A DNA stretch of 64,000 bases. Source: Nemertoderma westbladi (taxonomy: Eukaryota; Animalia; Xenacoelomorpha). The notes beneath the pieces were generated by a model. The model saw only the letters and a list, made by a program, of their open reading frames with translations. It did no database searches and had not been told where the DNA came from. Position numbers and translations under genes: made by a program. The DNA lies in the NCBI GenBank assembly GCA_032718475.1, contig JAUCBJ010002610.1:1-64000 (forward strand), in the 5' to 3' direction. This document shows, piece after piece, positions 1,791-55,400 of the stretch (within the stretch, counting starts at the first letter, position 1; each line of letters opens with the position of its first letter).

Positions 1791-2851
1791 CTTTGTTTTG
1801 TACAGAACGGGCACACTAGCAGTAACGTCTTGGGGCTTTGGTCTTTGTTTTGTACTCAACCCTTCACGACATTGTAGTCTCATGGGCTCATGGCTAGATA
1901 CTGGTTTGTGTAGGCCTGGTGCACAGCCAATTACTTTCCTTATTATCGGTTTTGGTATTCGCATATATTGACTACATATCATGGCAGTGGAGACTTGGCA
2001 GGCAATAAGGACGTAAATTGCGGACTCGTTTCTGTGCGGGGGGCGGTTTGTGGGAGCTGTGTCTGACGTCGTTACAATATAATGCAAGCCAATATTTTGT
2101 ATTTTATGTGCAAGTTTTTTTTACAAGCTTTTAAGAATTAAAAGCGCATAAACGCATAATAAGAGCATAAAAATTTAAAAATTGTAATAAATACTTTGAA
2201 CCACAAATAAAAAAATAAATTAAAATTTGCGCTGCACCGGGCACCCTGTCCCTTCCATTAATAGAGAATAGAGCACACGATAACATATTCAATCAAAATA
2301 AACTCTAAATTGGAATAAAAGCAAGTGGCGGAACCAAATTGGGTACCTCCCCGGTGCAGTAAATGGAATGTAAATCAATTGTGGGCAATCGTTGGCCAAG
2401 TGAGTGACAACCCGTCAGAAACGAAAGGGAAGATAAATATGGTGAATCTGAGCCGTGACCCGTTGCAGAACCACCCGTCCATTCCGATTGGAGCTGGGGG
2501 CTAACAGCGGAAACCACTCCATATGCTATTGAATTACCAATAGTGTCAGTATGACTATCCGACTAGCTATACGTCAGCCATCCCCCGGGCGGCAAGCAAC
2601 CCCAGGTGATTTGGTTAAATAAATCTGTGATTAGATCGGCCCGATCGGTCCGACAGGTTGCGTCGACAGGCATTCCCAATCCCAATGTAATGCTTATCTA
2701 GGATTTGTGTTGGGGTTACGTGCTGTAATTTAATTTACAGCTACTTTACCTAAAATTGTGCAAAAATGGTAACTAATCCACCAGTACGTTAAGTTTTCCG
2801 CCTCAAACGCAAATTTTAATTAAGAAGAATTGGCGTCCGGAAGGTCGTCCG

Positions 2852-8562: not shown

Positions 8563-8804
8563 CCTACAGATATGTATAAAACCCACGGTGGGATTGATTC
8601 ATTACTGACAGCCACAGTTTTATGAAATTTTTTTGCAAACAAATTGTACCATAAAACAAGACTGCTAAAATGTCTACGTTTCATATATTATGGAAGTTTT
8701 GGCGGATGGGGGGGGGGGGGGGGGGGGGGGTGACCTGGTATATATAGTTTTCAGTGATAGAAAGAAATTATAATTAATAAATAAATATTTATTTAGATTC
8801 TAAC

Positions 8805-8872
8805 CTGCCGTATCTCATATGCGCTGACTCTAACCCCAGAAGTTCCCCAGGTACGGCAATGCTTTTAACGCC
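8805..8872 (-). CDS. GGT: GGT coding exon 5 (GVKSIAVPGELLGLESAHMRYG)
   Basis: Acceptor TTTATTTTTAG, donor GGCAG|GTTAG; 68 nt. Not in the ORF track. Confidence 0.92.
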
Positions 8873-28406: not shown

Positions 28407-28443
<37 letters not shown>

Positions 28444-31400: not shown

Positions 31401-34400
31401 TGTTACACACAATTTGAGACAATTTATTTTCTTAATAACTCAGTTCCATTTAAAGCAAATTTATTCTTCAAGGCGACATATGAAAGCCAGATTATTAATT
31501 AAAACAGTTAAAACAATTAATATACAACCAGTAAATTAGACAAATGTTTCTTGACTAATGTATTTGTGAGTTAGTTATCTTTACTGCGGCTCAGCTCGTT
31601 CCAAAACTTCATTCTATTCGGAGGAATAATCGATCCTAGACGTCGTATTAATTCTTCTAGTCTGTCAGCAGGTACACCTTTAGGTTCCTTTAAGAAATTG
31701 GGAACTAGGAAGCTTGCGTTTCTCTTCATAATATCACCTGCTACTATCCAATTAGCATCACTGTTGTAGTTCACCTTATACTTCATCAAACGTAAACCTT
31801 TCTCGAATCGCAATGCTACAATTGACTTTAATAGCGGAAACGTACCCATTTCTCGACACTTGTTAAGTTTATAAGTAGAAGTTTCATTGGTCCAATCGTG
31901 AACGTCACTGTGGTTGACAATCATCACCTCTGATTTATAATTGGCGGCTTTCTTAACACACTTAGCAAAGTCTTGGAAATCGTAAACTTTCTTCATAGCC
32001 TTTATTTCTTTATTGACAAGTCTATGCAGGTTGTCTGCAGACATGGAAGAGTGGTGTGGCTCGAAATACCATAATTCGACAGCATCCTGTCCCATGAATT
32101 GAATCAATGTAAGAAGGCATGAGAAGAGTGTGTAATTTTTGTTTTGGGCTCCGCAATTGTCCAACCAAATCTTCACCAACTTCTTATCGCGCACTGAATT
32201 CAGAAAATAAAAGAATGTGGAAGCTATATCTTCGTCGTTACGACCATGTTCCCCATCGTGCCATATGGCGCAAAATACATCCTCATTAATTCGGTGCTTT
32301 CCGAGGGGAACGAAAGATTCGTGAAAAGCCACGATTCGCCGCAGGAACTGTACATCTTTAAACATCTCAAGTACAGGCAACATTATTACTTTCTGTAAAT
32401 CAGCAGAAACTATGGTCATTGATTCATCCCTTTGTATCTCAGCATCCCTCTGATAGCAATCCCTGGAGCGCTGGAGGCAACGGCACGGTCACAATGGGCT
32501 TGATGTTCAGCACAAATATCACATACAGATCCTTCAGAACTCGTGGCTGCAGTTGATGCACATGCATGTAGAGAATATGCTTCGCATTTAATACATTCTT
32601 CATGTCCCAATTGTGCGAAAGATATATTCATAGATCTGAATACTTGACAGTATTTTTGGTATTCAACAGGATGTTCGGGGTGCTTCATATTGCAATCTTC
32701 ATTAAGGGCAACTAATGTAAATTCCGAAGGTAAGTATCGTCTATTTGGTGCATGCTCATATCGATAATGAGCTATTTCAGGCTGGTATGATTCTATATGC
32801 GCTTTAATAGGGGCATCAGAAATTTTATTGGCGGGTTCGTGTCGGCCGCGGGTATCTTTATGAGGAACTACATCGCTTACAGATCCCCTCAATGCCGTCT
32901 TTATTGGTTGATTGTTACTTGCTTTATACCCCAGTGTTGTCAAAATAAATTTTTGACAAACTTGACTCCGATCACCAGCTTCACTTGTGAGAAAATATTT
33001 ACAAATCTTCTTTTTACGTTTTTGTGTAGCTGGAATAGATTGTTCTATTGAAGATAGCAGAAATTGGTTTCTTTGACTAGGTCCCATTGACCAAAAACTA
33101 TCTCTTAAATACTGACGTCGATCTTCCCCAATACTTAATTTGCAACGAAGTTGACACATCACTACATACCGATGCTTTAATTATATGTATCTCTCCTTTC
33201 CTTAACATTTGTTCTTTCTCCGTTCTCGCCCGAGGCTTTATAGGTGGTCTTTGACGTTTCTTCTTGTTCACTGGACGTATTTGATCTTCAGCAGATGCAT
33301 CAGTAGTGTCTTCGGTAGTATCCTCAGAAACATTACCTGACAGTGGAAGCCATTCCTCTTCTATATCTTCCTCAGAGCTATTGGACTGAATTTGGTTGGT
33401 GTTTGTCTCTATTTCAGGTGACATTTGGCCGTGACTCGGAACATTTAAAGATGGTCTGATTTCTATATCGAGCATCTCCACATTATCTGTATTACTGGTA
33501 TAATAAAATAAACTATTCAGTATATCTTCAGCACTTTCCAAGTTACTCTGGGTCGTTCCAAGTTCGACCGATTCACCCTGCACCGTTCCAAGTTCGACCG
33601 ATTCACCCTGCACCGTTTCAAGTTCGACCGATTCACCCTGCACCGTTCCAAGTTCGACCGATTCACCCTGCACCGTTCCAAGTTCGACTGAGTCACCCTG
33701 GGCCGTTCCAACTTCGACCGAGTCACCCTGGGCCATTCCGAGTTCGACCGAATCACCCTGGGCCATTCTAAGTTCGACCGAGTCACCCTGGGCCATTCCG
33801 AGTTCGACCGAATCACCCTGGGCCGTTCCAACTTCGACCAAATCACCCTGGGCCATCCCAAGTTCGACCGAATCACCCTGGGCCGTTCCAACTTCGACCA
33901 AATCACCCTGGGCCATCCCAAGTTCGACCGAGTCACCCTGGGCCATTCCGAGTTCGACCGAATCACCCTGGGCCATTCTAAGTTCGACCGAGTCACCCTG
34001 GGCCATTCCAAGTTCGACTGAGTCACCCTGGGCCATTCCGAGTTCGACCAAGTCACCCTGGGCCATTCCAAGTTCGACCGATTCACCCTGCACCGTTTCA
34101 AGTTCGACCGATTCACCCTGCACCGTTCCAAGTTCGACTGAGTCACCCTGGGCCGTTCCAAGTTCGACCGAATCACCCTGGGCCATTCCAAGTTCGACCG
34201 AGTCACCCTGTGCCATTCCAAGTTCGACCGAGTCAGCCTGGAGCGTTTCGACCGAGTCACCCTGGGCCATTCCGAGTTCGACCGAGTCACCCTGGGCCAT
34301 TCCGAGTTCACCCTGGGCCATTCTGAGTTCGACCGAATCACCCTGGGCCATTCCAAGTTCGACTGAGTCACCCTGGGCCATTCCAAGTTCGACCGAGTCA

Positions 34401-37400
34401 CCCTGGGCCATTCCAAGTTCGACCGAGTCAGCCTGGAGCGTTTCGACCGAGTCACCCTGGGCCATTCCGAGTTCGACCGAGTCACCCTGGGCCATCCTTT
34501 TGGGGTAGGATCTTGTAACTGGTATGTTCCTTTTTTTCCTTCTCCTGTGCCGATTTGACTCAAATCCCATAAAAACTTCCCCATCATCGTCGTCACTCTC
34601 GTTGTGCTCAAAATACATGCTGAATAAACTCCGACTTTAAAACTATAATATATTTATATATAACTATTTATACCATAACCATAAATACTATTAATTTAGT
34701 TTAAAGCTAATAATATGCTTTGATATTATGGCATTTTATTCTAGGTCTAGTTCATTGACGGTGTTTGCAAATTTGTGCTCGCTTCGCTAGCGTTATTCGT
34801 TCTATTTGACCTACTCTATTACCTACATCTATACGTTATTACGCCGAAAATTTGTGTCGGTGAAGCACAGATTTTTTGCTTAGGTCAAGTGTTGAAGAGC
34901 AATTCCAGGGCAGTATGCCATAATTTGAAATCTGGCAAAATACCCTATCTATACCAAAAGGGTGTTGTTCATTTCAAATTTCCCTCTTTATGTACTTAGT
35001 TCGAAATTACAGTCATTATGAGGCTCAATATTATAACTATTATAATGGCATTGACAGCGGCGACCTTATTCTTTCCTTAGACTCCGTTAACCCTATATTA
35101 AGATGTAAATACCCTATCTCATTTATATTGATATAGGTTATTGTAAAATGCCCAAATATTTTTAGGCAATATACCCTATCTGTTCCAGCTCGCGATAGGG
35201 TGTTTTGCCTTAACATAAAGGACAAATAGGTGTTTTATAGGGTATTTTGCCACCTGAAAACTCTATTTTGCGCTCTGAAACAGCCTTATCGTTCTATACT
35301 GTTAGATAGAGCGTAAAATTTTATGTGGATTTGTAAAATAAAAAAAAATTTATATTTTTTGAGATAGGGTGTTTTGCCTTAACACGGCAGTGCGGTTCCA
35401 ATGAGATAAAAGAAACCGCAGATACACGACACAAAGTAAAAGCTTACCTACACTACTAAGAATTAAGTACAGTTCGATAACATCGCAAAACATTATAATA
35501 TTTAATATTTTTAATTGTTAATAATAAATTTAAGAAAATAACACGCATCTCAGTCTCACAAATATTAACTTTTTTTTTACAGTTTTAGTCTTACCTACCG
35601 GCTACCCCCACTAAATCAAATCTGAATATGTTACTAACTCACCCTCCTATCCCTCTAGGAACCCAAATCAGTTAGTAACTCACTCTCGTATCCCTCTAGG
35701 TACCCAAATCAGTTAGTAACTCACCCTCATATCTCTTTAGGAACCCAAATCAGTTAATAACTCACCCTCGTATCTCTCTAGGAACCCAAATCAGTTACTA
35801 ACTCACCCTCCTATCCCTCTAGGAACCCAAATCAGTTACTAACTCACCCTCCTATCCCTCTAGGAACCCAAATAAGTTAGTTACTCACCCTCCTATCTCT
35901 CTAGGAACCCAAATCAGTTAGTTACTCACCCTCCTATCTCTCTAGGAACCCAAATCAGTTAGTAACTCACCCTGTTATCTCTCTAAACCCAAATCAGTTA
36001 CTAACTCACCCTCCTATCCCTCTAGGAACCCAAATCAGTTAGTAACTCACCCTCCTATCTCTCTAGGAACCCAAATCAGTTAGTAACTCACCCTGTTATC
36101 TCTCTAAACCCAAATCAGTTACTAACTCACCCTCCTATCCCTCTAGGAACCCAAATCAGTTAGTAACTCACCCTCCTATCCCTCTAGGAACCCAAACCAG
36201 TTAGTAACTCACCCTCCTATCTCTCTAGGAACCCAAACCAGTTAGTAACTCACCCTCCTATCTCTCTAGGAACCCAAATCAGTTAGTAACTCACCCTCCT
36301 ATCTCTCTAGGAACCCAAATCAGTTAGTAACTCACCCTCCTATCCCTCTAGGAACCCAAACCAGTTAGTAACTCACCCTCCTATCTCTCTAGGAACCCAA
36401 ATCAGTTAATAACTCACCCTCGTATCTCTCTAGGAACCCAAATCAGTTACTAACTCATCCTCCTATCCCTCTAGGAACCCAAACCAGTTAGTAACTCACC
36501 CTCCTATCTCTCTAGGAACCCAAATAAGTTAGTAACTCACCCTCCTATCTCTCTAGGAACCCAAATCAGTTAGTAACTCACCCTCCTATCCCTCTAGGAA
36601 CCCAAATCAGTTAGTAACTCACCCTCCTATCCCTCTAGGAACCCAAATCAGTTAGTAACTCACCCTCCTATCCCTCTAGGAATCCAAATCAGTTAGTAAC
36701 TCACCCTCCTATCTCTCTAGGAACCCAAATCAGTTAGTAACTCACCCTCATATCTCTCTAGGAACCCAAATCAGTTGTAGTAACTCACCCTCATATCTCT
36801 CTAGGAACCCAAATAAGTTAGTAACTCACCCTCCTATCCCTCTAAGCACCCAAATCAGTTAGTAACTCACCCTCATATCTCTCTAGGAACCCAAATCAGT
36901 TGTAGTAACTCACCCTCATATCTCTCTAGGAACCCAAATAAGTTAGTAACTCACCCTCCTATCTCTCTAGGAACCCAAATAAGTTAGTAACTCACCCTCC
37001 TATCTCTCTAGGAACCCAAATCAGTTGTAGTAACTCACCCTCATATCACTCTAGGAACCCAAATCAGTTAGTAACTCACCCTCCTATCCCTCTAGGAATC
37101 CAAATCAGTTAGTAACTCACCCTCCTATCTCTCTAGGAACCCAAATCAGTTAGTAACTCACCCTCATATCTCTCTAGGAACCCAAATCAGTTGTAGTAAC
37201 TCACCCTCATATCTCTCTAGGAACCCAAATAAGTTAGTAACTCACCCTCCTATCCCTCTAAGCACCCAAATCAGTTAGTAACTCACCCTCATATCTCTCT
37301 AGGAACCCAAATCAGTTGTAGTAACTCACCCTCATATCTCTCTAGGAACCCAAATAAGTTAGTAACTCACCCTCCTATCTCTCTAGGAACCCAAATAAGT

Positions 37401-40400
37401 TAGTAACTCACCCTCCTATCTCTCTAGGAACCCAAATCAGTTGTAGTAACTCACCCTCATATCTCTCTAGGAACCCAAATCAGTTAGTTACTCACCCTCC
37501 TATCTCTCTAGGAACCCAAATAAGTTAGTAACTCACCCTCCTATCTCTCTAGGAACCCAAATCAGTTGTAGTAACTCACCCTCATATCTCTCTAGGAACC
37601 CAAATAAGTTAGTAACTCACCCTCCTATCCCTCTAGGAACCCAAACCAGTTATAGTAACTCACCCTCCTATCTCTCTAGGAACCCAAATCAGTTAGTAAC
37701 TCACCCTATTATCTCTCTAGGAACCCAAATAAGTTAGTAACTCACCCTCCTATCTCTCTAGGAACCCAAATCAGTTGTAGTAACTCACCCTCATATCTCT
37801 CTAGGAACCCAAATCAGTTACTAACTCACCCTCCTATCCCTCTAGGAACCCAAATCAGTTACTAACTCACCCTCCTATCCCTCTAGGAACCCAAATAAGT
37901 TAGTAACTCACCCTCATATCTCTCTAGGAACCCAAATAAGTTAGTAACTCACCCTCCTATCTCTCTAGGAACCCAAATCAGTTACTAACTCACCCTCCTA
38001 TCCCTCTAGGAACCCAAATCAGTTACTAACTCACCCTCCTATCCCTCTAGGAACCCAAATCAGTTAGTAACTCACCCTCCTATCCCTCTAGGAACCCAAA
38101 TCAGTTAGTAACTCACCCTCCTATCCCTCTAAGCACCCAAATCAGTTAGTAACTCACCCTCATATCTCTCTAGGAACCCAAATCAGTTGTAGTAACTCAC
38201 CCTCATATCTCTCTAGGAACCCAAATAAGTTAGTAACTCACCCTCCTATCTCTCTAGGAACCCAAATAAGTTAGTAACTCACCCTCCTATCTCTCTAGGA
38301 ACCCAAATCAGTTGTAGTAACTCACCCTCATATCTCTCTAGGAACCCAAATAAGTTAGTAACTCACCCTCCTATCTCTCTAGGAACCCAAATCAGTTACT
38401 AACTCACCCTCCTATCCCTCTAGGAACCCAAATCAGTTAGTAACTCACCCTCATATCTCTCTAGGAACCCAAATCAGTTGTAGTAACTCACCCTCATATC
38501 TCTCTAGGAACCCAAATAAGTTAGTAACTCACCCTCCTATCTCTCTAGGAACCCAAATCAGTTACTAACTCACCCTCCTATCCCTCTAGGAACCCAAATC
38601 AGTTAGTAACTCACCCTCCTATCCCTCTAGGAACCCAAATCAGTTAGTAACTCACCCTCCTATCCCTCTAAGCACCCAAATCAGTTAGTAACTCACCCTC
38701 ATATCTCTCTAGGAACCCAAATCAGTTGTAGTAACTCACCCTCATATCTCTCTAGGAACCCAAATAAGTTAGTAACTCACCCTCCTATCTCTCTAGGAAC
38801 CCAAATAAGTTAGTAACTCACCCTCCTATCCCTCTAAGCACCCAAATCAGTTAGTAACTCACCCTCATATCTCTCTAGGAACCCAAATCAGTTGTAGTAA
38901 CTCACCCTCATATCTCTCTAGGAACCCAAATAAGTTAGTAACTCACCCTCCTATCTCTCTAGGAACCCAAATAAGTTAGTAACTCACCCTCATATCTCTC
39001 TAGGAACCCAAATCAGTTGTAGTAACTCACCCTCATATCTCTCTAGGAACCCAAATAAGTTAGTAACTCACCCTCCTATCTCTCTAGGAACCCAAATAAG
39101 TTAGTAACTCACCCTCCTATCTCTCTAGGAACCCAAATAAGTTAGTAACTCACCCTCCTATCTCTCTAGGAACCCAAATCAGTTAGTAATTCAACCTCCT
39201 ATCTCTCTAGGAACCCAAATCAGTTAGTAACTCACCCTCCTATCCCTCTAGGAACCCAAATCAGTTAGTAACTCACCCTCATATCTCTTTAGGAACCCAA
39301 ATCAGTTAGTAACTCACCTTCATATCTCTCTAGGAACCCAAATCAGTTAGTTACTCACCCTATCTCTCTAGAACCCAAATAAGTTAGTAACTCACCCTCA
39401 TATCTCTCTAGGGACCCAAATAAGTTAGTAACTCACCCTCATATCTCTCTAGGAACCCAAATCAGTTAGTTACTCACCCTCCTATCTCTCTAGGAACCCA
39501 ACTAAGTTAGTAACTCACCCTCATATCTCTCTAGGAACCCAAATAAGTTAGTAACTCGCCCTCATATCTCTCTAGTAACCCAAATAAGTTAGTAACTCAC
39601 CCTCCTATCTCTCTAGGAACCCAAATCAGTTAGTTACTCACCCTCCTATCCCTCTAGGAACCCAAATCAGTTAGTAACTCACCCTCCTATCTCTCTAGGA
39701 ACCCAACTAAGTTAGTAACTCACCCTCATATCTCTCTAGGAACCCAAATCAGTTAGTTACTCACCCTCCTATCTCTCTAGGAACCCAAATAAGTTAGTAA
39801 CTCACCCTCATATCTCTCTAGGAACCCAAATCAGTTAGTTACTCACCCTCCTATCTCTCTAGGAACCCAAATAAGTTAGTAACTCACCCTCATATCTCTC
39901 TAGGAACCCAAATCAGTTAGTTACTCACCCTCCTATCTCTCTAGGAACCCAAATAAGTTAGTAACTCACCCTCCTATCTCTCTAGGAACCCAAATCAGTT
40001 AGTAACTCACCCTCGTATCTCTCTAGGAACCCAAATCAGTTAGTTACTCACCCTCCTATCTCTCTAGGAACCCAAATAAGTTAGTAACTCACCCTCATAT
40101 CTCTCTAGGAACCCAAATCAGTTAGTTACTCACCCTCCTATCTCTCTAGGAACCCAAATAAGTTAGTAACTCACCCTCATATCTCTCTAGGAACCCAAAT
40201 CAGTTAGTAACTCACCTTCATATCTCTCTAGGAACCCAAATAAGTTAGTAACTCACCCTCATATCTCTCTAGGAACCCAAATCAGTTAGTTACTCACCCT
40301 CCTATCTCTCTAGGAACCCAAATAAGTTAGTAACTCACCCTCATATCTCTCTAGGAACCCAAATCAGTTAGTTACTCACCCTCCTATCTCTCTAGGAACC

Positions 40401-43400
40401 CAAATAAGTTAGTAACTCACCCTCCTATCTCTCTAGGAACCCAAATAAGTTAGTAACTCACCCTCATATCTCTCTAGGAACCCAAATCAGTTAGTTACTC
40501 ACCCTCCTATCTCTCTAGGAACCCAAATAAGTTAGTAACTCACCCTCATATCTCTCTAGGAACCCAAATCAGTTAGTTACTCACCCTCCTATCTCTCTAG
40601 GAACCCAAATAAGTTAGTAACTCACCCTCATAGCTCTCTAGGAACCCAAATCAGTTAGTTACTCACCCTCCTATCTCTCTAGGAACCCAAATAAGTTAGT
40701 AACTCACCCTCATATCTCTCTAGGAACCCAAATCAGTTAGTTACTCACCCTCCTATCTCTCTAGGAACCCAAATAAGTTAGTAACTCACCCTCCTATCTC
40801 TCTAGGAACCCAAATAAGTTAGTAACTCACCCTCATATCTCTCTAGGAACCCAAATCAGTTAGTTACTCACCCTCCTATCTCTCTAGGAACCCAAATAAG
40901 TTAGTAACTCACCCTCATATCTCTCTAGGAACCCAAATCAGTTAGTTACTCACCCTCCTATCTCTCTAGGAACCCAAATAAGTTAGTAACTCACCCTCAT
41001 ATCTCTCTAGGAACCCAAATCAGTTAGTTACTCACCCTCCTATCTCTCTAGGAACCCAAATAAGTTAGTAACTCACCCTCATATCTCTCTAGGAACCCAA
41101 ATCAGTTAGTTACTCACCCTCCTATCTCTCTAGGAACCCAAATAAGTTAGTAACTCACCCTCATATCTCTCTAGGAATCCAAATAAGTTAGTAACTCACC
41201 CTCATATCTCTCTAGGAACCCAAATCAGTTAGTTACTCACCCTCCTATCTCTCTAGGAACCCAAATAAGTTAGTAACTCACCCTCATATCTCTCTAGTAA
41301 CCCAAATCAGTTAGTAACTCACCCTCGTATCTCTCTAGGAACCCAAATCAGTTAGTTACTCACCCTCCTATCTCTCTAGGAACCCAAATAAGTTAGTAAC
41401 TCACCCTCATATCTCTCTAGGAACCCAAATCAGTTAGTTACTCACCCTCATATCTCTCTAGGAACCCAAATCAGTTAGTTACTCACCCTCCTATCTCTCT
41501 AGGAACCCAAATAAGTTAGTAACTCACCCTCATATCTCTCTAGGAACCCAAATCAGTTAGTTACTCACCCTCCTATCTCTCTAGGAACCCAAATAAGTTA
41601 GTAACTCACCCTCATATCTCTCTAGGAATCCAAATAAGTTAGTAACTCACCCTCATATCTCTCTAGGAACCCAAATCAGTTAGTTACTCACCCTCCTATC
41701 TCTCTAGGAACCCAAATAAGTTAGTAACTCACCCTCATATCTCTCTAGGAACCCAAATCAGTTAGTTACTCACCCTCCTATCTCTCTAGGAACCCAAATA
41801 AGTTAGTAACTCACCCTCATATCTCTCTAGGAATCCAAATAAGTTAGTAACTCACCCTCATATCTCTCTAGGAACCCAAATCAGTTAGTTACTCACCCTC
41901 CTATCTCTCTAGGAACCCAAATAAGTTAGTAACTCACCCTCATATCTCTCTAGGAATCCAAATAAGTTAGTAACTCACCCTCATATCTCTCTAGGAACCC
42001 AAATCAGTTAGTAACTCACCCTCATATCTCTCTAGGAACCCAAATAAGTTAGTAACTCACCCTCCTATCTCTCTAGGAACCCAAATAAGTTAGTAACTCA
42101 CCCTCATATCTCTCTAGGAACCCAAATAAGTTAGTAACTCACCCTCATATCTCTCTAGGAACCCAAATAAGTTAGTAACTCACCCTCGTATCTCTCTAGG
42201 AACCCAAATCAGTTAGTTACTCACCCTCCTATCTCTCTAGGAACCCAAATAAGTTAGTAACTCACCCTCATATCTCTCTAGGAACCCAAATCAGTTAGTT
42301 ACTCACCCTCCTATCTCTCTAGGAACCCAAATAAGTTAGTAACTCACCCTCCTATCTCTCTAGGAACCCAAATAAGTTAGTAACTCACCCTCATATCTCT
42401 CTAGGAACCCAAATAAGTTAGTAACTCACCCTCATATCTCTCTAGGAACCCAAATAAGTTAGTAACTCACCCTCGTATCTCTCTAGGAACCCAAATCAGT
42501 TAGTTACTCACCCTCCTATCTCTCTAGGAACCCAAATAAGTTAGTAACTCACCCTCATATCTCTCTAGGAACCCAAATCAGTTAGTTACTCACCCTCCTA
42601 TCTCTCTAGGAACCCAAATAAGTTAGTAACTCACCCTCATATCTCTCTAGGAATCCAAATAAGTTAGTAACTCACCCTCATATCTCTCTAGGAACCCAAA
42701 TCAGTTAGTTACTCACCCTCCTATCTCTCTAGGAACCCAAATAAGTTAGTAACTCACCCTCCTATCTCTCTAGGAACCCAAATCAGTTAGTAACTCACCC
42801 TCCTATCTCTCTAGGAACCCAAATAAGTTAGTAACTCACCCTCATATCTCTCTAGGAACCCAAATCAGTTAGTTACTCACCCTCCTATCTCTCTAGGAAC
42901 CCAAATAAGTTAGTAACTCACCCTCATATCTCTCTAGGAACCCAAATCAGTTAGTTACTCACCCTCCTATCTCTCTAGGAACCCAAATAAGTTAGTAACT
43001 CACCCTCCTATCCCTCTAGGAACCCAAATAAGTTAGTAACTCACCCTGTTATCTCTCTAAACCCAAATCAGTTAGTTACTCACCCTCCTATCTCTCTAGG
43101 AACCCAAATAAGTTAGTAACTCACCCTCATATCTCTCTAGTAACCCAAATCAGTTAGTTACTCACCCTCCTATCTCTCTAGGAACCCAAATCAGTTAGTA
43201 ACTCACCCTATTATCTCTCTAGGAACCCAAATCAGTTAGTAACTCACCCTATTATCTCTCTAGGAACCCATATCAGTTAGTAACTCACCCTCATATCTCT
43301 CTAGTAACCCAAATCAGTTAGTTACTCACCCTCCTATCTCTCTAGGAACCCAAATCAGTTAGTTACTCACCCTCCTATCTCTCTAGGAACCCAAATCAGT

Positions 43401-46400
43401 TAGTAACTCTCCCTCATATCTCTCTATAGGAACCCAAACCAGTTAGTAACTCATCCTCATATCTCTCTATAGGAACCCAAACCAGTTAGTAACTCACCCT
43501 CATATCTCTCTAGGAACCCAAATAAGTTAGTAACTCACCCTCCTATCTCTCTAGGAACCCAAATAAGTTAGTAACTCACCCTCCTATCCCTCTAAGCACC
43601 CAAATCAGTTAGTAACTCACCCTCATATCTCTCTAGGAACCCAAATCAGTTGTAGTAACTCACCCTCATATCTCTCTAGGAACCCAAATAAGTTAGTAAC
43701 TCACCCTCCTATCTCTCTAGGAACCCAAATAAGTTAGTAACTCACCCTCATATCTCTCTAGGAACCCAAATCAGTTGTAGTAACTCACCCTCATATCTCT
43801 CTAGGAACCCAAATAAGTTAGTAACTCACCCTCCTATCTCTCTAGGAACCCAAATAAGTTAGTAACTCACCCTCCTATCTCTCTAGGAACCCAAATAAGT
43901 TAGTAACTCACCCTCCTATCTCTCTAGGAACCCAAATCAGTTAGTAATTCAACCTCCTATCTCTCTAGGAACCCAAATCAGTTAGTAACTCACCCTCCTA
44001 TCCCTCTAGGAACCCAAATCAGTTAGTAACTCACCCTCATATCTCTTTAGGAACCCAAATCAGTTAGTAACTCACCTTCATATCTCTCTAGGAACCCAAA
44101 TCAGTTAGTTACTCACCCTATCTCTCTAGAACCCAAATAAGTTAGTAACTCACCCTCATATCTCTCTAGGGACCCAAATAAGTTAGTAACTCACCCTCAT
44201 ATCTCTCTAGGAACCCAAATCAGTTAGTTACTCACCCTCCTATCTCTCTAGGAACCCAACTAAGTTAGTAACTCACCCTCATATCTCTCTAGGAACCCAA
44301 ATAAGTTAGTAACTCGCCCTCATATCTCTCTAGTAACCCAAATAAGTTAGTAACTCACCCTCCTATCTCTCTAGGAACCCAAATCAGTTAGTTACTCACC
44401 CTCCTATCCCTCTAGGAACCCAAATCAGTTAGTAACTCACCCTCCTATCTCTCTAGGAACCCAACTAAGTTAGTAACTCACCCTCATATCTCTCTAGGAA
44501 CCCAAATCAGTTAGTTACTCACCCTCCTATCTCTCTAGGAACCCAAATAAGTTAGTAACTCACCCTCATATCTCTCTAGGAACCCAAATCAGTTAGTTAC
44601 TCACCCTCCTATCTCTCTAGGAACCCAAATAAGTTAGTAACTCACCCTCATATCTCTCTAGGAACCCAAATCAGTTAGTTACTCACCCTCCTATCTCTCT
44701 AGGAACCCAAATAAGTTAGTAACTCACCCTCCTATCTCTCTAGGAACCCAAATCAGTTAGTAACTCACCCTCGTATCTCTCTAGGAACCCAAATCAGTTA
44801 GTTACTCACCCTCCTATCTCTCTAGGAACCCAAATAAGTTAGTAACTCACCCTCATATCTCTCTAGGAACCCAAATCAGTTAGTTACTCACCCTCCTATC
44901 TCTCTAGGAACCCAAATAAGTTAGTAACTCACCCTCATATCTCTCTAGGAACCCAAATCAGTTAGTAACTCACCTTCATATCTCTCTAGGAACCCAAATA
45001 AGTTAGTAACTCACCCTCATATCTCTCTAGGAACCCAAATCAGTTAGTTACTCACCCTCCTATCTCTCTAGGAACCCAAATAAGTTAGTAACTCACCCTC
45101 ATATCTCTCTAGGAACCCAAATCAGTTAGTTACTCACCCTCCTATCTCTCTAGGAACCCAAATAAGTTAGTAACTCACCCTCCTATCTCTCTAGGAACCC
45201 AAATAAGTTAGTAACTCACCCTCATATCTCTCTAGGAACCCAAATCAGTTAGTTACTCACCCTCCTATCTCTCTAGGAACCCAAATAAGTTAGTAACTCA
45301 CCCTCATATCTCTCTAGGAACCCAAATCAGTTAGTTACTCACCCTCCTATCTCTCTAGGAACCCAAATAAGTTAGTAACTCACCCTCATAGCTCTCTAGG
45401 AACCCAAATCAGTTAGTTACTCACCCTCCTATCTCTCTAGGAACCCAAATAAGTTAGTAACTCACCCTCATATCTCTCTAGGAACCCAAATCAGTTAGTT
45501 ACTCACCCTCCTATCTCTCTAGGAACCCAAATAAGTTAGTAACTCACCCTCCTATCTCTCTAGGAACCCAAATAAGTTAGTAACTCACCCTCATATCTCT
45601 CTAGGAACCCAAATCAGTTAGTTACTCACCCTCCTATCTCTCTAGGAACCCAAATAAGTTAGTAACTCACCCTCATATCTCTCTAGGAACCCAAATCAGT
45701 TAGTTACTCACCCTCCTATCTCTCTAGGAACCCAAATAAGTTAGTAACTCACCCTCATATCTCTCTAGGAACCCAAATCAGTTAGTTACTCACCCTCCTA
45801 TCTCTCTAGGAACCCAAATAAGTTAGTAACTCACCCTCATATCTCTCTAGGAACCCAAATCAGTTAGTTACTCACCCTCCTATCTCTCTAGGAACCCAAA
45901 TAAGTTAGTAACTCACCCTCATATCTCTCTAGGAATCCAAATAAGTTAGTAACTCACCCTCATATCTCTCTAGGAACCCAAATCAGTTAGTTACTCACCC
46001 TCCTATCTCTCTAGGAACCCAAATAAGTTAGTAACTCACCCTCATATCTCTCTAGTAACCCAAATCAGTTAGTAACTCACCCTCGTATCTCTCTAGGAAC
46101 CCAAATCAGTTAGTTACTCACCCTCCTATCTCTCTAGGAACCCAAATAAGTTAGTAACTCACCCTCATATCTCTCTAGGAACCCAAATCAGTTAGTTACT
46201 CACCCTCATATCTCTCTAGGAACCCAAATCAGTTAGTTACTCACCCTCCTATCTCTCTAGGAACCCAAATAAGTTAGTAACTCACCCTCATATCTCTCTA
46301 GGAACCCAAATCAGTTAGTTACTCACCCTCCTATCTCTCTAGGAACCCAAATAAGTTAGTAACTCACCCTCATATCTCTCTAGGAATCCAAATAAGTTAG

Positions 46401-49400
46401 TAACTCACCCTCATATCTCTCTAGGAACCCAAATCAGTTAGTTACTCACCCTCCTATCTCTCTAGGAACCCAAATAAGTTAGTAACTCACCCTCATATCT
46501 CTCTAGGAACCCAAATCAGTTAGTTACTCACCCTCCTATCTCTCTAGGAACCCAAATAAGTTAGTAACTCACCCTCATATCTCTCTAGGAATCCAAATAA
46601 GTTAGTAACTCACCCTCATATCTCTCTAGGAACCCAAATCAGTTAGTTACTCACCCTCCTATCTCTCTAGGAACCCAAATAAGTTAGTAACTCACCCTCA
46701 TATCTCTCTAGGAATCCAAATAAGTTAGTAACTCACCCTCATATCTCTCTAGGAACCCAAATCAGTTAGTAACTCACCCTCATATCTCTCTAGGAACCCA
46801 AATAAGTTAGTAACTCACCCTCCTATCTCTCTAGGAACCCAAATAAGTTAGTAACTCACCCTCATATCTCTCTAGGAACCCAAATAAGTTAGTAACTCAC
46901 CCTCATATCTCTCTAGGAACCCAAATAAGTTAGTAACTCACCCTCGTATCTCTCTAGGAACCCAAATCAGTTAGTTACTCACCCTCCTATCTCTCTAGGA
47001 ACCCAAATAAGTTAGTAACTCACCCTCATATCTCTCTAGGAACCCAAATCAGTTAGTTACTCACCCTCCTATCTCTCTAGGAACCCAAATAAGTTAGTAA
47101 CTCACCCTCCTATCTCTCTAGGAACCCAAATAAGTTAGTAACTCACCCTCATATCTCTCTAGGAACCCAAATAAGTTAGTAACTCACCCTCATATCTCTC
47201 TAGGAACCCAAATAAGTTAGTAACTCACCCTCGTATCTCTCTAGGAACCCAAATCAGTTAGTTACTCACCCTCCTATCTCTCTAGGAACCCAAATAAGTT
47301 AGTAACTCACCCTCATATCTCTCTAGGAACCCAAATCAGTTAGTTACTCACCCTCCTATCTCTCTAGGAACCCAAATAAGTTAGTAACTCACCCTCATAT
47401 CTCTCTAGGAATCCAAATAAGTTAGTAACTCACCCTCATATCTCTCTAGGAACCCAAATCAGTTAGTTACTCACCCTCCTATCTCTCTAGGAACCCAAAT
47501 AAGTTAGTAACTCACCCTCCTATCTCTCTAGGAACCCAAATCAGTTAGTAACTCACCCTCCTATCTCTCTAGGAACCCAAATAAGTTAGTAACTCACCCT
47601 CATATCTCTCTAGGAACCCAAATCAGTTAGTTACTCACCCTCCTATCTCTCTAGGAACCCAAATAAGTTAGTAACTCACCCTCATATCTCTCTAGGAACC
47701 CAAATCAGTTAGTTACTCACCCTCCTATCTCTCTAGGAACCCAAATAAGTTAGTAACTCACCCTCCTATCCCTCTAGGAACCCAAATAAGTTAGTAACTC
47801 ACCCTGTTATCTCTCTAAACCCAAATCAGTTAGTTACTCACCCTCCTATCTCTCTAGGAACCCAAATAAGTTAGTAACTCACCCTCATATCTCTCTAGTA
47901 ACCCAAATCAGTTAGTTACTCACCCTCCTATCTCTCTAGGAACCCAAATCAGTTAGTAACTCACCCTATTATCTCTCTAGGAACCCAAATCAGTTAGTAA
48001 CTCACCCTATTATCTCTCTAGGAACCCATATCAGTTAGTAACTCACCCTCATATCTCTCTAGTAACCCAAATCAGTTAGTTACTCACCCTCCTATCTCTC
48101 TAGGAACCCAAATAAGTTAGTAACTCACCCTCATATCTCTCTAGTAACCCAAATCAGTTAGTTACTCACCCTCCTATCTCTCTAGGAACCCAAATCAGTT
48201 AGTAACTCTCCCTCATATCTCTCTATAGGAACCCAAATCAGTTAGTAACTCACCCTATTATCTCTCTAGGAACCCATATCAGTTAGTAACTCACCCTCAT
48301 ATCTCTCTAGTAACCCAAATCAGTTAGTAACTCACCCTCGTATCTCTCTAGGAACCCAAATCAGTTAGTAACTCACCCTATTATCTCTCTAGGAACCCAT
48401 ATCAGTTAGTAACTCACCTTCATATCTCTCTAGGAACCCAAATCAGTTAGTAACTCACCCTATTATCTCTCTAGGAACCCATATCAGTTAGTAACTCACC
48501 CTCATATCTCTCTAGTAACCCAAATCAGTTAGTTACTCACCCTCCTATCTCTCTAGGAACCCAAATAAGTTAGTAACTCACCCTCCTATCTCTCTAGGAA
48601 CCCAAATCAGTTAGTAACTCTCCCTCATATCTCTCTATAGGAACCCAAACCAGTTAGTAACTCACCCTCCTATCTCTCTAGGAACCCAAATCAGTTAGTT
48701 ACTCACCCTCCTATCTCTCTAGGAACCCAAATAAGTTAGTAACTCACCCTCATATCTCTCTAGTAACCCAAATCAGTTAGTTACTCACCCTCCTATCTCT
48801 CTAGTAACCCAAATCAGTTAGTTACTCACCCTCATATCTCTCTAGTAACCCAAATCAGTTAGTTACTCACCCTCCTATCTCTCTAGGAACCCAAATAAGT
48901 TAGTAACTCACCCTCATATCTCTCTAGTAACCCAAATCAGTTAGTTACTCACCCTCCTATCTCTCTAGGAACCCAAATCAGTTAGTAACTCTCCCTCATA
49001 TCTCTCTATAGGAACCCAAACCAGTTAGTAACTCACCCTCGTATCTCTCTAGGAACCCAAATCAGTTAGTAACTCACCCTATTATCTCTCTAGGAACCCA
49101 AATCAGTTAGTTACTCACCCTCCTATCTCTCTAGGAACCCAAATAAGTTAGTAACTCACCCTCATATCTCTCTAGTAACCCAAATCAGTTAGTTACTCAC
49201 CCTCCTATCTCTCTAGGAACCCAAATCAGTTAGTAACTCTCCCTCATATCTCTCTATAGGAACCCAAACCAGTTAGTAACTCACCCTCGTATCTCTCTAG
49301 GAACCCAACTAAGTTAGTAACTCACCCTCATATCTCTCTAGGAACCCAAATCAGTTACTAACTCACCCTCATATCTCTCTAGGAACCCAAATCAGTTAGT

Positions 49401-52400
49401 TACTCACCCTCCTATCTCTCTAGGAACCCAAATCACTTAGTAACTCACCCTCCTATCCCTCTAGGAACCCAAACCAGTTAGTAATTCAACCTCCTATCTC
49501 TCTAGGAACCCAAATCAGTTAGTTACTCACCCTGTTATCTCTCTAAACCCAAATAAGTTAGTAACTCACCCTCCTATCTCTCTAGGAATCCAAATAAGTT
49601 AGTAACTCACCCTCATATCTCTCTAGGGACCCAAATAAGTTAGTAACTCACCCTCGTATCTCTCTAGGAACCCAAATCAGTTAGTAACTCACCCTATTAT
49701 CTCTCTAGGAACCCATATCAGTTAGTAACTCACCTTCATATCTCTCTAGGAACCCAAATCAGTTAGTAACTCACCCTATTATCTCTCTAGGAACCCATAT
49801 CAGTTAGTAACTCACTTTCATATCTCTCTAGGAACCCAAATCAGTTAGTAACTCACCCTGTTATCTCTCTAAACCCAAATCAGTTAGTTACTCACCCTCC
49901 TATCTCTCTAGGAACCCAAATCAGTTAGTAACTCACCCTGTTATCTCTCTAAACCCAAATCAGTTAGTTACTCACCCTCCTATCCCTCTAGGAACCCAAA
50001 TCAGTTAGTAAATCACCCTCCTATCTCTCTAGGAATCCAAATCAGTTATAGTAATTCACCCTCCTATCCCTCTAGGAACCCAAATCAGTTAGTAACTCAC
50101 CCTATTATCTCTCTAGGAACCCATATCAGTTAGTAACTCACCTTCATATCTCTCTAGGAACCCAAATAAGTTAGTAACTCACCCTCATATCTCTCTAGTA
50201 ACCCAAATCAGTTAGTTACTCACCCTCCTATCTCTCTAGGAACCCAAATCAGTTAGTTACTCACCCTCCTATCTCTCTAGGAACCCAAATCAGTTAGTAA
50301 CTCACCCTCATATCTCTCTAGGAACCCAAATCAGTTAGTAACTCACCCTCATATCTCTCTAGGAACCCAAATCAGTTAGTAACTCACCCTCATATCTCTC
50401 TAGGAACCCAAATCAGTTAGTAACTCACCCTCATATCTCTCTAGGAACCCAAATCAGTTAGTAACTCACCCTCGTATCTCTCTAGGAACCCAAATCAGTT
50501 AGTTACTCACCCTCCTATCTCTCTAGGAACCCAAATAAGTTAGTAACTCACCCTCATATCTCTCTAGGAACCCAAATCAGTTAGTTACTCACCCTCCTAT
50601 CTCTCTAGGAACCCAAATCAGTTAGTAACTCACCCTCATATCTCTCTAGGAACCCAAATCAGTTAGTAACTCACCCTCCTATCTCTCTAGGAACCCAAAT
50701 CAGTTAGTTACTCACCCTCCTATCTCTCTAGGAACCCAAATCAGTTAGTAACTCACCCTCCTATCTCTCTAGGAACCCAAATCAGTTAGTTACTCACCCT
50801 CCTATCTCTCTAGGAACCCAAATCAGTTAGTTACTCACCCTCCTATCTCTCTAGGAACCCAAATCAGTTAGTAACTCACCCTCCTATCTCTCTAGGAACC
50901 CAAATCAGTTAGTAACTCACCCTCATATCTCTCTAGGAACCCAAATCAGTTAGTTACTCACCCTCATATCTCTCTAGGAACCCAAATCAGTTAGTAACTC
51001 ACCCTCATATCTCTCTAGGAACCCAAATCAGTTAGTAACTCACCCTCTTATCTCTCTAGGAACCCAAATCAGTTAGTAACTCACCCTCATATCTCTCTAG
51101 GAACCCAAATCAGTTAGTAACTCACCCTCATATCTCTCTAGGAACCCAAATCAGTTAGTAACTCACCCTCCTATCTCTCTAGGAACCCAAATCAGTTAGT
51201 TACTCACCCTCCTATCTCTCTAGGAACCCAAATAAGTTAGTAACTCACCCCCCTATCTCTCTAGGAACCCAAACCAGTTAGTAACTCACCCTGTTATCTC
51301 TCTAAACCCAAATCAGTTAGTTACTCACCCTCCTATCTCTCTAGGAACCCAAATCAGTTATAGTAACTCACCCTCATATCTCTCTAGGAACCCAAATAAG
51401 TTAGTAACTCACCCTCCTATCTCTCTAGGAACCCAAATCAGTTAGTAACTCACCTTCATATCTCTCTAGGAACCCAAACCAGTTAGTAACTCACCCTCCT
51501 ATCCCAGAGGAACCCAAACCAGTTAGTAACTCACCCTCCTATCCCAGAGGAACCACTGTGGATCACAGATATACAAAATGTTGCCGCCACTGCCGCGTCC
51601 ACTGCATTCCCGCCGCTCTGTAGAATTTTCGTACCGACTTGGGAACATTGAGTGGCGTCGCTCGCTACTGCACCGTGCGGGAGAACCTAGAACCATAGTG
51701 AGTGATCAGTGGACATGGACAGGATTAAATTGGATAATATAAAATAAAAAATTAATGAAAGTATAGGCCTATTCTTATAAAATAAACGGAGCGAAAATGT
51801 CGTAATTCAGTGACATGATCCCCCCCCCCCCCCCCCCCTCAAGTTTTCTACAGGTTGGGAAATAGTTGAGTTATGGGCATTCGAATGTTGCATGTAGGCC
51901 TTAGGCCTATTTGTTTCCTATGTATATGTACTAGTATTATGAATATTATGTATTTATTAGATAGAATAAATTGCCTGCACCAGATGCAAAATCATTAAGA
52001 TTTGTAGAAAAATTTGGGGTGGGGTGGGGTGGGGTGGGGGTGGGGTGGGGGTGGGGGTGGGGTGGGGTGGGGTGGGGTGGGGTGGGGTGGGGTGGGGTGG
52101 GGTGGGGTGGGGTGGGGTGGGGGGGGGGGGGGGGGGGGGGTATCACTGAATTACGACACTATATTCCAGGACATGGTGTAAACTGTTAAGTAGTGAGACA
52201 TTACTACTTGCTGACTTGGACTAGGAAATTAAAATTATATTAGAAAATATAAATATTTCATGATTTATTGATTTAAACTCAATTCTTAAACATTAAATAA
52301 CTAATCTTACCAGGATGGTTGATTATATTGGTGGATCAATGATTGATTAACATACAATTTATATTTCAAAAATAAATATATACCGGTATAGAAATAATAA

Positions 52401-55400
52401 TAAACTCACAGGTGGAACTCCTATAACATTTTCCACTATAACACCGATTGTCAAGGCAACTGCGAGAACTATAGAAGAGCCTATAATCACATAAAGTTGA
52501 GTCTTTTCGCTGCCACATTTAGAATCCCATAAACCTCGTCCTTCTGAGCTCAACGGAGTTTTCTCAGACAGATCGCTGTTGCGTGAAGCCAAGGGCAATG
52601 TGTCCGCTACAATTAAAACAGTTAAAACAAATTAGATAGTCTGTCTGACTAATCGGGTTTACCAAAATATCACAGAATCAAAATGGCATTGATAAGATGC
52701 TAAAACATATGAGATAATTGCTATAGGCCTAAGTAAAAATATTCATCAAATTGTCTGCCAGTCTGCCACTCCGACGCTCTACGTATGTTGTTAGGCTCTT
52801 AATAAATGTATACAGTCAAATGGTGTAATCATATACACCATTTCCCATAATACAACAACCATGTTTAGCAAGTCGGAGAGCACCCCCACGCCCCCCCCCC
52901 CCCCAATTTTTTCAAATTTCACTCAAATTTCAATTTCAAATTTGGAATTTTTTGGTGAAATTCAAAACAGTTTTCCGATTCTGGAGATAAAGGCGGTTCC
53001 AATGGTATCCGGATTACAGGTATAACCAAAAGACGAAAAATAAAGTCAATAGAGATGGTAAAATATTGCTTAAGAGGCGTTTTAATGGCTTGTTGTATCG
53101 AAATGCGAAATGGAACAGAAATTGAAAAATCCGGCTCTGCCCGCAGTAAGAAAAGTGGGTACGGGTAGGACTAAAAACCAAAACGGACCCAAACGGCAAC
53201 GGGGAAATACGTAGTTATATCGGATTTATTCATATCACAATGGTGTGGCGAAAAGATCTGGAAATACAATTTACCACTTAATTAATTAATTAATTAATTA
53301 AGTAAGCCCTAAAACCTTAATTGATTTCCTGCATGCCTAGATGTGCTGATACGATGGTACCGGTACAAACTACAAAGGACTTTCAGTTTCTCAGTATAAC
53401 ACCATACACCGTGTGTAGGTTCAGTTTGGGTGAGTTCCAATATTTTGATGATTAAATCGCCACAATGGAGGTTAAACTTTTTACTACTGTAGTATGCTGC
53501 CGCTATGGTCGCTATGGAGAAAACAATCGCCACAACGGAGGTTATACTGTCTGACCGGGGTTGCCGCAAGTTGAGGAAACTATTTCAGTGAAATAGGCCT
53601 ATTTTATTTCCGTTTTATTCACATTCTTCGTAAATTGTATTTCCAGCCACACCGTTTGCCGTTGTGATATTAATATGTCCAATACCGGTCGCCTGTATGG
53701 AATCCATCCAAAAAGTGCGCCGGACAGCGCGCCGACCAATATTTATGCGCTCCGCGCGCCGATGCAATTTCGAAGCAAACCCTGCGTCAACGAAAATTTT
53801 AAGCGTGCCGCACATTGCTGCCAATGTCAGTACTGCTGTACCTGTCCCTGCTGCCCTGTACAGCAGTAGCCTAACCACTGAACCATACAACAGAAAAAAG
53901 AAAGGCGATTGAAGCGAGTCGAAATTTTTAAACAGCTAATGCAATTTTTAAGGCACTTCCGTAATTGTTAAACTAACAAATCGGCGCCGGTTTTTATTTT
54001 TGGGAGCGCCACGCGCCAAAGCCGGCGCGCTTTACGATTTTCGAGCGCGCCACGCGCGCTTTTATTGCAAAGCGCGCTGGATTCCAGTCTGGACCGGTCG
54101 TATAACTCCGAATTTCCCCGTTTGGGTATCGTTTGTGTCCGTTTGGATTATAGTCCTACCGACTGACCGAGAAAAGTTGTGGAACTAATTTTAAAATCAC
54201 TCAATCAATCATCATTTCTAAATTTGAAAAATATTAGGCCGGGCCGGGAGTGCGGGAGATGGTGTATAAACTATAAAGCAGCAAGTTATCCCTTAGGAGA
54301 GTACAGAGTACACTGATACCTATTTGGAGCCGTTTCCCAGCTTGCGGATACCGGGATATGCAGTATGATATGGATAACATTCGGATAACAATCAGATAGC
54401 TGTATAGGCATAAACAAAACTAAAGTATCACATGCTTCAAAGGCTGAAATGGAACTAAACGTAATTATAATTGACAACGTGAACATCACCACAAGGCACT
54501 AGGCAGCAAGCAGGCAAGGGGGCATTAAAGTTTGAGAAACGGTGTGACAGAAGAAAAATCGAATTTGTGTCAAAATTTAGAAAGAGTGAGAAAACCAAAT
54601 TGATTCTAGTCGAAAAACGGGATGAAATGAAATACGGGATGACATTATTTTCATTATATGTCTTTATGTAGGAATGGCAGAATGGAAAGATAGATAGATA
54701 TACTGAACTGTGAGTGAAGGATGATTTAGATTGCAGGGCAATTGTATCAGCATTACACAGTTCTGCAGTTACAATCTTTAACTATCAGACTATTATTGGT
54801 ACAAACAACAATCCAGCAATCAAATCAACCACCTCCCCAAGCAGCGCCAGAGATTACTAGCAAAAATAAACTATCACCAGTCAGCTGGTCAGTCTGTGTT
54901 TGTGTTATTGATTCTCATTCTCACCTTATTTACGATTTATTACAATATATAGCTGTATTGGTTAGAACTTATAATATGCCACTCCACTACCGGTATAAGC
55001 AATAAGTATAACCTGGCCCTTAGGTAGTTAGGCCTAACATTTCAGGATCTATGGAATGACCATAGGACTTAATGACGCAGAACGATATAAGCCATATTCA
55101 TATTCAATGAGTTAGTTAAGTTGCCAAATATGGCAACAACGGCTTTATATCTGTATATAGTTGCCAAATCAGGCAATCAGAAATGTTGCCAGATTTTGCT
55201 TGGTTGCCAAATATGGCAATCACAATCATGTGCAATGTATCATTGTACAATGGCCAAATTTGGCCATTGTACCTAACCTAACTGACATTACAAATACAAA
55301 TTACGAGAATAAGAACAGAATGATGTTTATGAATACAGGAATATGAAGATTGCATGTAAAACTAGGCCTGCCAAAATTGGCAGTACTATCAATTTTGGCA

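What the first reader, a model, noticed from the sequence alone, without database searches (positions are those of the whole stretch)
35631..51554. A 16-kb satellite built from a gene's own splice donor, with donor + branch point + acceptor in most units
Seen: on the GGT sense strand the array is ~390 tandem copies of the exon-3 3' end plus the first ~21 intron bases. A typical unit reads GTGAGT (donor) TACTAAC (perfect branch-point consensus, or AACTAAC) TGATTTGGGTTCCTAG (AG ending ~17 nt after the branch A) AGAGATAGGAGG (12-nt exon-like stub) and then the next GTGAGT. The AG is derived: the real exon and the first unit have TCCTCTGGG, while most other units have TCCTAGAGRG. Using any downstream donor as an alternative 5' splice site gives an immediate stop (GGG TGA). 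Inference: the spliceosome must pick one donor out of hundreds of near-identical ones, so the array could act as a recursive-splicing ladder, a U1/U2/SF1 decoy, or an NMD-based regulator of GGT. It may also be neutral slippage that is simply tolerated.
Basis: partly seen in the sequence, partly recalled or inferred. Interest (0 to 1): 0.9.

Follow-up and report, generated by a model that had tools for sequence, protein, structure and literature searches.

The report
Giant splice-junction repeat in GGT intron
The end of one exon of an animal gamma-glutamyltransferase gene, with its splice signal, is repeated about 388 times in a row inside the next intron, yet the one RNA-like data set examined shows only the first signal in use, so this is likely a very large but neutral example of a known oddity ("mirage" repeats).

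Summary
Observation confirmed. A 41-bp array of 387 full units plus one partial unit starts at the exon-3 donor of a GGT-family gene; 374 GTGAGT copies; 321 of 387 units hold donor, (T/A)ACTAAC and CTAG. An RNA-like run has one contig leaving exon 3, joined to exon 4 (51535->13542), and no depth on array units, while keeping a 1.2% variant in the same exon. DNA runs of two samples hold the repeat at high depth. A recursive ladder fails: the AG lies 12 nt before the next donor, so each step would leave a stub. The splice signals are not better conserved than the rest of the unit (low power). 44.5% of the window is tandem repeat. It matches human F7 intron 7 and amphioxus 'mirage' minisatellites (3-25 copies in the papers read); the scan noted arrays of about 100 copies on other genomes. 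New here: the size, and an AG-to-donor spacing equal to the one silenced in ATM intron 20. An exact 4,627-nt internal duplication may be recent or misassembled. Low-level leak into NMD is not excluded.

The parts
52410..52606 (-).
   Evidence: AG/GT flanks and frame continuity; joined to exon 3 in an X4 contig (loose end at 51686). No Pfam hit.
51535..51686 (-). GGT exon 3 (152 nt); its last 20 nt (51554-51535) seeded the repeat
   Evidence: PF01019 E=4.5e-10; human GGT1 heavy chain E=5.5e-10; X4 depth 333-1092
51529..51534 (-). Authentic 5' splice site GTGAGT, phase 2; the only donor seen in use
   Evidence: X4 contig of 1256 nt, depth 562, leaves at 51535 and continues with exon 4
51495..51534 (-). 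Unit 1 (40 nt), the only unit that keeps the exon's TCCTCTGGG
35630..51534 (-). 41-bp tandem array: 387 full units + terminal partial unit; 373 GTGAGT pseudo-donors behind the real one; donor, branch-like heptamer, TAG, 12-nt stub
43487..48113 (.). One copy of an exact 4,627-nt internal duplication (lag 4,758)
38729..43355 (.). Other copy of the exact duplication (units 201-313, 113 units): recent unequal crossover or assembly error
35630..35642 (-). Terminal partial unit, continuous with unique intron; carries TAGTAAC instead of TACTAAC
13543..51534 (-). Host intron, 37,992 nt, 51% tandem repeat (41-mer, 30-mer, 49-mer arrays)
13419..13542 (-). GGT exon 4 (124 nt), the acceptor used
   Evidence: PF01019 positions 34-72, E=0.0044; X4 loose end matches 13513-13542 letter for letter
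8805..8872 (-). GGT exon 5 (68 nt), predicted; the gene would continue beyond the window
   Evidence: AG/GT flanks and open frame; not checked in RNA

Best explanation
A 40-nt piece spanning the exon 3/intron border of an expressed GGT gene is tandemly repeated about 388 times in the assembly; it likely grew by slippage and unequal crossover as a neutral 'mirage' minisatellite, and the spliceosome likely ignores the copies. Shown: the array, its derivation from the exon end, and use of the first donor with exon 4 in one RNA-like run. Inferred: (1) the first donor wins because only it closes a normal 152-nt exon and it comes first in a 5'-to-3' scan, as shown for human F7; (2) the inner AGs stay silent because each lies 12 nt before a donor, the spacing at which U1 blocks a cryptic acceptor in ATM intron 20, and because each branch-like heptamer abuts a donor; (3) rare use of a later donor meets GGG TGA and would be removed by NMD, which makes the array cheap to carry.
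For: Seed: exon and unit 1 share TCCTCTGGG, coding the conserved S-G-I-G-G of GGTs. RNA-like run X4: depth only on the exon; one contig (1256 nt, depth 562) crosses the exon-3 end into exon 4; the depth of bin 51531-51549 (483.5) is fully accounted for by that contig and two exon contigs; depth 0 on 51455-51530 where 90-95%-alike unit contigs of DNA runs do lay; variant contigs at 1.2% and 3.9% were kept in the same exon. No excess conservation: 11 distinct substitutions at 16 signal positions against 12.5 expected (P=0.37); GT 4 against 1.6 expected. Minisatellite dynamics: edge units closer to the exon (AGAGGG in 29 of its 37 units from unit 290 on), nested exact duplications here and in neighbouring arrays. 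44.5% of the window is tandem repeat, and the other five arrays checked start 242 nt or more from any GGT exon border. No folding signal (z 0.02 and -0.25). Precedents: F7 IVS7, LMNB2, PDGF use only the first donor (PMC1557585); amphioxus mirages do not disturb splicing (PMC3087553, PMC3902484); ATM 12-bp spacing (PMC2790898).
Against: Perfect TACTAAC is rare in the non-repeat part of this window (2 in 35,504 bases, both strands; about 0.001 per 40 nt), so its presence is a real coincidence, though a single post hoc one; the loose form yTnAy has about 0.3. Array acceptors are not clearly weaker by pyrimidine count than the real ones (10-11 of 17 against 11 of 17, with more G and fewer T). In human 6-16 and CBS the two nearest pseudo-donors are used (PMC1557585). 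X4 is one run, of contigs, with no library record; its RNA nature is inferred from coverage, the animal's array allele is unknown, and NMD would hide stop-containing isoforms. The conservation test has only 32 distinct substitutions and little power. The human mechanisms are carried over to an unidentified animal.
Confidence: 0.8

Rival explanations
1. Leaky donor choice tunes GGT level: a share of transcripts uses the second or third donor, hits GGG TGA and is destroyed by NMD, and array length or variant order sets that share.
For: Every later donor gives an immediate stop. Donor 2 is identical to donor 1 over 20 exonic and 20 intronic bases. Human 6-16 and CBS use the two nearest pseudo-donors (PMC1557585 Introduction). 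NMD targets would be under-seen in X4.
Against: No X4 contig enters the intron although variants at 1.2% are kept. GGG TGA follows from any phase-2 GG|GTGA donor and needs no selection. In F7 only the most upstream sites matter, so hundreds of further copies would add little.
Confidence: 0.1
2. The array is a bank of 12-nt microexons or a sink for U1, SF1 and U2: TAG|12 nt|GT would add four residues (218 of 387 units) or a TGA stop (157 of 387) inside the conserved SGIGGG motif.
For: 375 of 387 stubs are 12 nt and keep the frame. Branch A 17 nt before the AG; a donor-to-next-unit AG intron would be 70 nt. TACTAAC is rare in background.
Against: No stub-containing path in X4. 12-nt AG-to-donor spacing is the silent configuration in ATM; 10 more bases gave only a little intermediate (PMC2790898 section 9). 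Only 6 of 387 units have TGC before the AG (the link of UGC to regulated microexons is recalled). No excess conservation. TACTAAC and TAGTAAC are the two orientations of one near-palindrome, and the terminal unit has the G form. One transcribed intron is a small sink against the cell's U1 pool (recalled).
Confidence: 0.05
3. Recursive-splicing ladder that removes the 38-kb intron stepwise.
For: Long intron; acceptor-like and donor signals in each unit.
Against: Recursive sites are tandem acceptor-donor pairs (PMC8605326). Splicing to the array TAG leaves GG|AGAG, no donor; using the next GT keeps a 12-nt stub, and 157 of 387 stubs carry a stop. 8 of 387 junctions are AG|GT, all AAG after a purine-rich stub. 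The array covers only the first 42% of the intron.
Confidence: 0.02
4. The array is real but its length is inflated by the assembly (compatible with the best explanation).
For: An exact 4,627-nt repeat without one mismatch inside an array whose units differ from the consensus by 1.8 letters on average.
Against: Neighbouring arrays also have exact internal repeats of 1,293 and 662 nt, as recent unequal crossover would give. X1 summed depth on units is 2,569-9,301 against 7.64 on the unique flank, single unit contigs 52-233 (not a copy number). Without one copy about 270 units remain.
Confidence: 0.2

Closest known systems
Human F7 intron 7 37-bp VNTR, with 6-16, CBS intron 13, LMNB2 and PDGF minisatellites (PMC1557585; abstract, Introduction and passages read)
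   Same: First unit spans the exon/intron border; identical pseudo-donors follow; the most upstream donor is used.
   Different: 5-9 copies in F7 and up to 25 pseudo-sites in the others, against about 388 here. F7 takes 4 exonic bases per unit, this takes 20. A branch-like heptamer and AG in each unit are not described in the passages read.
Amphioxus 'mirage' minisatellites in Adh3, globins BflGb6/BflGb9, TnC, PGBD5 (PMC3087553 and PMC3902484, passages read; Canestro et al. 2002 not seen)
   Same: Tandem copies of an exon-intron border in an invertebrate; 10-72 bp units in Adh3; splice signals kept; normal splicing; border units escape homogenisation.
   Different: 3-6 copies in BflGb6; here a 16-kb array with nested duplications. 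Length polymorphism was not measured here.
ATM intron 20 ISPE (PMC2790898; passages and section 9 read)
   Same: A U1 site 12 bp downstream of a cryptic acceptor, which stays silent; works like the proposed silencing of the inner AGs.
   Different: Single site, not a repeat; human; the block was shown by minigene there and is only inferred here.
Recursive splice sites / ratchet points (PMC8605326; Introduction read)
   Same: Long intron with acceptor-like and donor signals.
   Different: No tandem AG|GT at the array acceptor; no conservation; no scar-free path.

Membership tests
Splice-junction ('mirage', F7-type) minisatellite | Head-to-tail repeat whose first unit spans an exon/intron border of a real gene | tested here: met
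   junction used in X4
Splice-junction ('mirage', F7-type) minisatellite | Splice signal reiterated in the copies | tested here: met
   374 GTGAGT; GT intact in 375 of 387 full units
Splice-junction ('mirage', F7-type) minisatellite | Normal splicing from the most upstream donor dominates | tested here: met
   One contig path 51535->13542 at depth 562, none into the array; one run of contigs, array allele of that animal unknown
Splice-junction ('mirage', F7-type) minisatellite | Concerted evolution with border units set apart | tested here: met
   Unit 1 unique; AGAGGG and TAGTAAC forms cluster at the distal end; nested duplications
Splice-junction ('mirage', F7-type) minisatellite | Copy number varies between alleles | not testable with these tools
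   Only short contigs were available; no piece spans the array
Recursive splice site (ratchet point) | Tandem acceptor-donor AG|GT that regenerates a donor | tested here: not met
   12-nt gap in 375 of 387 units; 8 of 387 AAG|GT junctions without a pyrimidine tract
Recursive splice site (ratchet point) | Saw-tooth nascent coverage and intermediates | not testable with these tools
   X4 has no depth on unique intron sequence
Recursive splice site (ratchet point) | Strong conservation of the site | tested here: inconclusive
   No deficit of substitutions within the array, low power; no related species available
Poison exon / AS-NMD regulator | Alternative isoform with a premature stop is made | tested here: inconclusive
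   Stops predicted; no such contig in X4, but NMD would deplete it
Gamma-glutamyltransferase (PF01019) | N-terminal GGT profile match in order across exons | tested here: met
   the catalytic small subunit lies outside the window and was not tested

The most novel reading that the evidence does not exclude
A satellite born from a splice junction has become a length-variable bank of complete 12-nt microexons: in some tissue or stress state the spliceosome includes one stub, adding four residues or a stop inside the GGT SGIGGG motif, so that array length and the mix of open (218) and stop (157) units set the GGT level through NMD.
Probability: 0.05. Interest if true: 0.8.

Novelty: new member of a known kind. 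Interest (0 to 1): 0.3.

Why it matters
As it stands: an extreme natural test of first-donor selection. The correct donor is used with 373 GTGAGT copies behind it, about 15 times the largest count in the papers read (25 pseudo-sites in human 6-16), and hundreds of AG-12 nt-GT units appear to stay silent. That extends the F7 scanning rule and the ATM spacing rule to another animal and a far larger scale, if confirmed in nascent RNA. It is also a warning for gene prediction and long-read assembly in repeat-rich genomes. It is not a new kind of element, and no function is shown.

Tried and rejected
No whole genome is held for this window, so no genome-wide count of junction arrays. A unit pattern found 0 matches in metagenome contigs. 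X2 and X3 have no depth on exon 3 or its unique flank, so they give no single-copy baseline. The distal array border has no read evidence and stays open. RNA folding: no structure beyond shuffles, so structural masking of the sites was dropped. Coding function of the array: longest stop-free stretch 27 codons on the gene strand, 88 on the other. The homologue search confirmed GGT but did not place the organism (12 hits). Literature: 6 search calls answered; (satellite DNA + intron + splice donor + hundreds of copies + exon) gave 0 papers and one search gave 5 unrelated by listing; this is weak evidence that no array of this size is in print, as subscription papers are missing. PMC10078293 and PMC12783039 (passages) held nothing on junction-spanning arrays in the passages shown. 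No supplements were read; those of PMC3087553 hold the mirage alignments. The Atlas gave no result for the nested F-box ORF.
Full report
Observation. Cut at the donor, it has 387 full units from 51534 and a partial unit at 35642; 65 distinct unit sequences; mean 1.8 differences from the majority unit. GTGAGT occurs 374 times, TACTAAC 254 times, AACTAAC 99 times; 321 of 387 units have donor, heptamer and CTAG together. The exon and unit 1 read TCCTCTGGG; 340 units read TCCTAG. The exon form codes the S-G-I-G-G shared with solved GGTs, so the exon is the ancestor of the unit (inference). The seed is 20 exonic plus 20 intronic bases.

The gene. Exon 3 (51686-51535) matches PF01019 positions 2-32 and exon 4 (13542-13419) positions 34-72. 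Four exons join into one frame without a stop. The intron between exons 3 and 4 is 37,992 nt, 51% tandem repeat. The organism was not identified.

RNA evidence. Four runs of one organism hold the region; all four were laid on 51455-52000. X4 has no library record and is tagged 'DNA?', but its depth covers the exon (333-1092) and not the unique intron, and its two exon-end loose ends match exon 2 and exon 4 letter for letter, so I read it as spliced RNA. One contig of 1256 nt at depth 562 crosses the end of exon 3 into 13542. The depth of the bin at the exon end (483.5) is fully explained by this contig and two exon-internal contigs, so no second laid contig leaves the exon. X4 has depth 0 on the two array units in the stretch, where DNA-run contigs of 90-95% likeness do lay. 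Variant contigs at 1.2% and 3.9% survive in the same exon, which suggests a floor near 1%. Limits: one run, contigs rather than reads, another sample whose array allele is unknown, NMD targets under-seen, and 40 loose-end rows and 529 pieces not shown.

DNA evidence. In X1 a 316-nt contig at depth 7.64 runs from the upstream intron through exon 3 and 27 bases into unit 1 (short of the tool's 31-base bar for bridging); unit contigs have depths of 52-233, summed 2,569-9,301. X2 and X3 (one other sample) also hold units at high depth. The repeat is thus real and many-copy; X1 may be the source animal; no read spans the array. An exact 4,627-nt duplication (113 units) lies inside it: recent crossover or assembly error.

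Are the splice signals meaningful? They are one ancestral string amplified. Perfect TACTAAC is rare in background (2 in 35,504 non-repeat bases, both strands), the loose metazoan form is common (about 0.3 per 40 nt); this is the main point against my reading. But the heptamer is part of a near-palindrome whose inversion gives TAGTAAC, found in 12 full units (11 of them from unit 317 on) and in the terminal unit. Unit 1 already had an AG 24 nt after the branch A; the derived change moved it to 17 nt. Of 32 distinct substitutions (unit 1 left out), 11 fall on the 16 signal positions against 12.5 expected (P=0.37), and the GT has 4 against 1.6: no sign of selection, with little power. Pyrimidine counts of array acceptors (mostly 10-11 of 17) are close to those of real ones (11 of 17), so weakness alone does not explain their silence. 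Folding is no better than shuffles.

Mechanism. Geometry does explain it. Within a unit the donor lies 12 nt before the branch A and 29 nt before the AG, too short for an intron (recalled knowledge); the next unit's AG, at 70 nt, is possible. Each AG is followed by a donor 12 nt later. In ATM intron 20 a U1 site 12 bp downstream of a cryptic acceptor keeps it silent, and larger inserts switch it on (PMC2790898, section 9). For donors, F7 minigenes show that the most upstream of identical sites is chosen (PMC1557585). Both are human results carried over by inference. A recursive ladder needs tandem acceptor-donor pairs (PMC8605326); here a step would leave a 12-nt stub, in frame in 375 of 387 units, open in 218 and with TGA in 157. 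Only 8 junctions read AG|GT. Use of any later donor gives GGG TGA, as any phase-2 GG|GTGA donor does.

Context. 44.5% of the window is tandem repeat. The same gene holds 44-, 21/55-, 49-, 30- and 21-bp arrays that start 242 nt or more from its exon borders and some have exact internal duplications of their own. The genome evidently expands short seeds readily; one seed fell on a splice junction (inference).

Known kinds. Human F7, 6-16, CBS, LMNB2 and PDGF have donor-spanning minisatellites of 5-25 copies; in 6-16 and CBS the two nearest pseudo-donors are also used (PMC1557585; found before I consulted earlier notes). Amphioxus 'mirages' are the invertebrate counterpart and do not disturb splicing (PMC3087553, PMC3902484; passages); that lead came from the scan's earlier notes, which also list unchecked cases of about 90-105 copies on other genomes. 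No note exists for this genome. A search for arrays with hundreds of copies gave 0 papers, weak evidence of absence.

Verdict. New member of a known kind, unusual in size. Neutral tolerated expansion 0.8; NMD leak 0.1; microexon bank or decoy 0.05; recursive ladder 0.02; length inflated by assembly 0.2 (not exclusive). Interest 0.3.

Noticed in passing
window 19956-22418 (+): Intronless ORF of about 820 codons nested antisense in the GGT intron: F-box-like (PF12937, E=1.4e-06), weak hit to FBXL2 repeats (E=0.0033), with an N-terminal Cys/His motif and a coiled-coil-like stretch. The layout resembles FBXO41 (recalled, untested). Retrocopy or nested gene.
   Followed up: partly
window 2846-8563 (+): 44-bp array with 117 donor-like GT(A/G)AG(T/G) motifs, all on the + strand; the first unit reads CAG|GTGAGT. 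Might be a second junction repeat of an unseen + strand exon; no exon was identified. Holds an exact 1,293-nt duplication.
   Followed up: partly
window 9932-12853 and 1531-1787 (+): Two arrays sharing the core TAGTAAGTCGT (21/13/55-bp and 21-bp); 127 and 7 GT(A/G)AGT motifs on the + strand. The first fills 64% of GGT intron 4.
   Followed up: no
window 16033-18635: 49-bp array, about 53 copies, 96% matches, inside the same intron; no donor or branch motif.
   Followed up: no
window 31571-34636 (-): Three adjacent ORFs (512, 254, 305 codons); the first is built on a 30-bp repeat that stays open, the last hits DUF7869 (E=1.5e-05). Likely a DNA transposon.
   Followed up: partly
window 28647-30687 (+): Two overlapping ORFs with a YADD motif and a C-terminal nuclease-like stretch; looks like a broken non-LTR retroelement (motifs recalled; no Pfam hit).
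   Followed up: partly
window 51853-51896: A 44-nt dispersed repeat in the intron before exon 3, with summed depth up to 44,000 in DNA runs and many different continuations.
   Followed up: no
window 60481-61974 (-): 497-codon ORF with Cys/His knuckle-like motifs and no Pfam hit; next to a 292-bp direct repeat at 62209-62816.
   Followed up: no
window 1043-1318 (+): Integrase core fragment (PF24764, E=4e-09).
   Followed up: no
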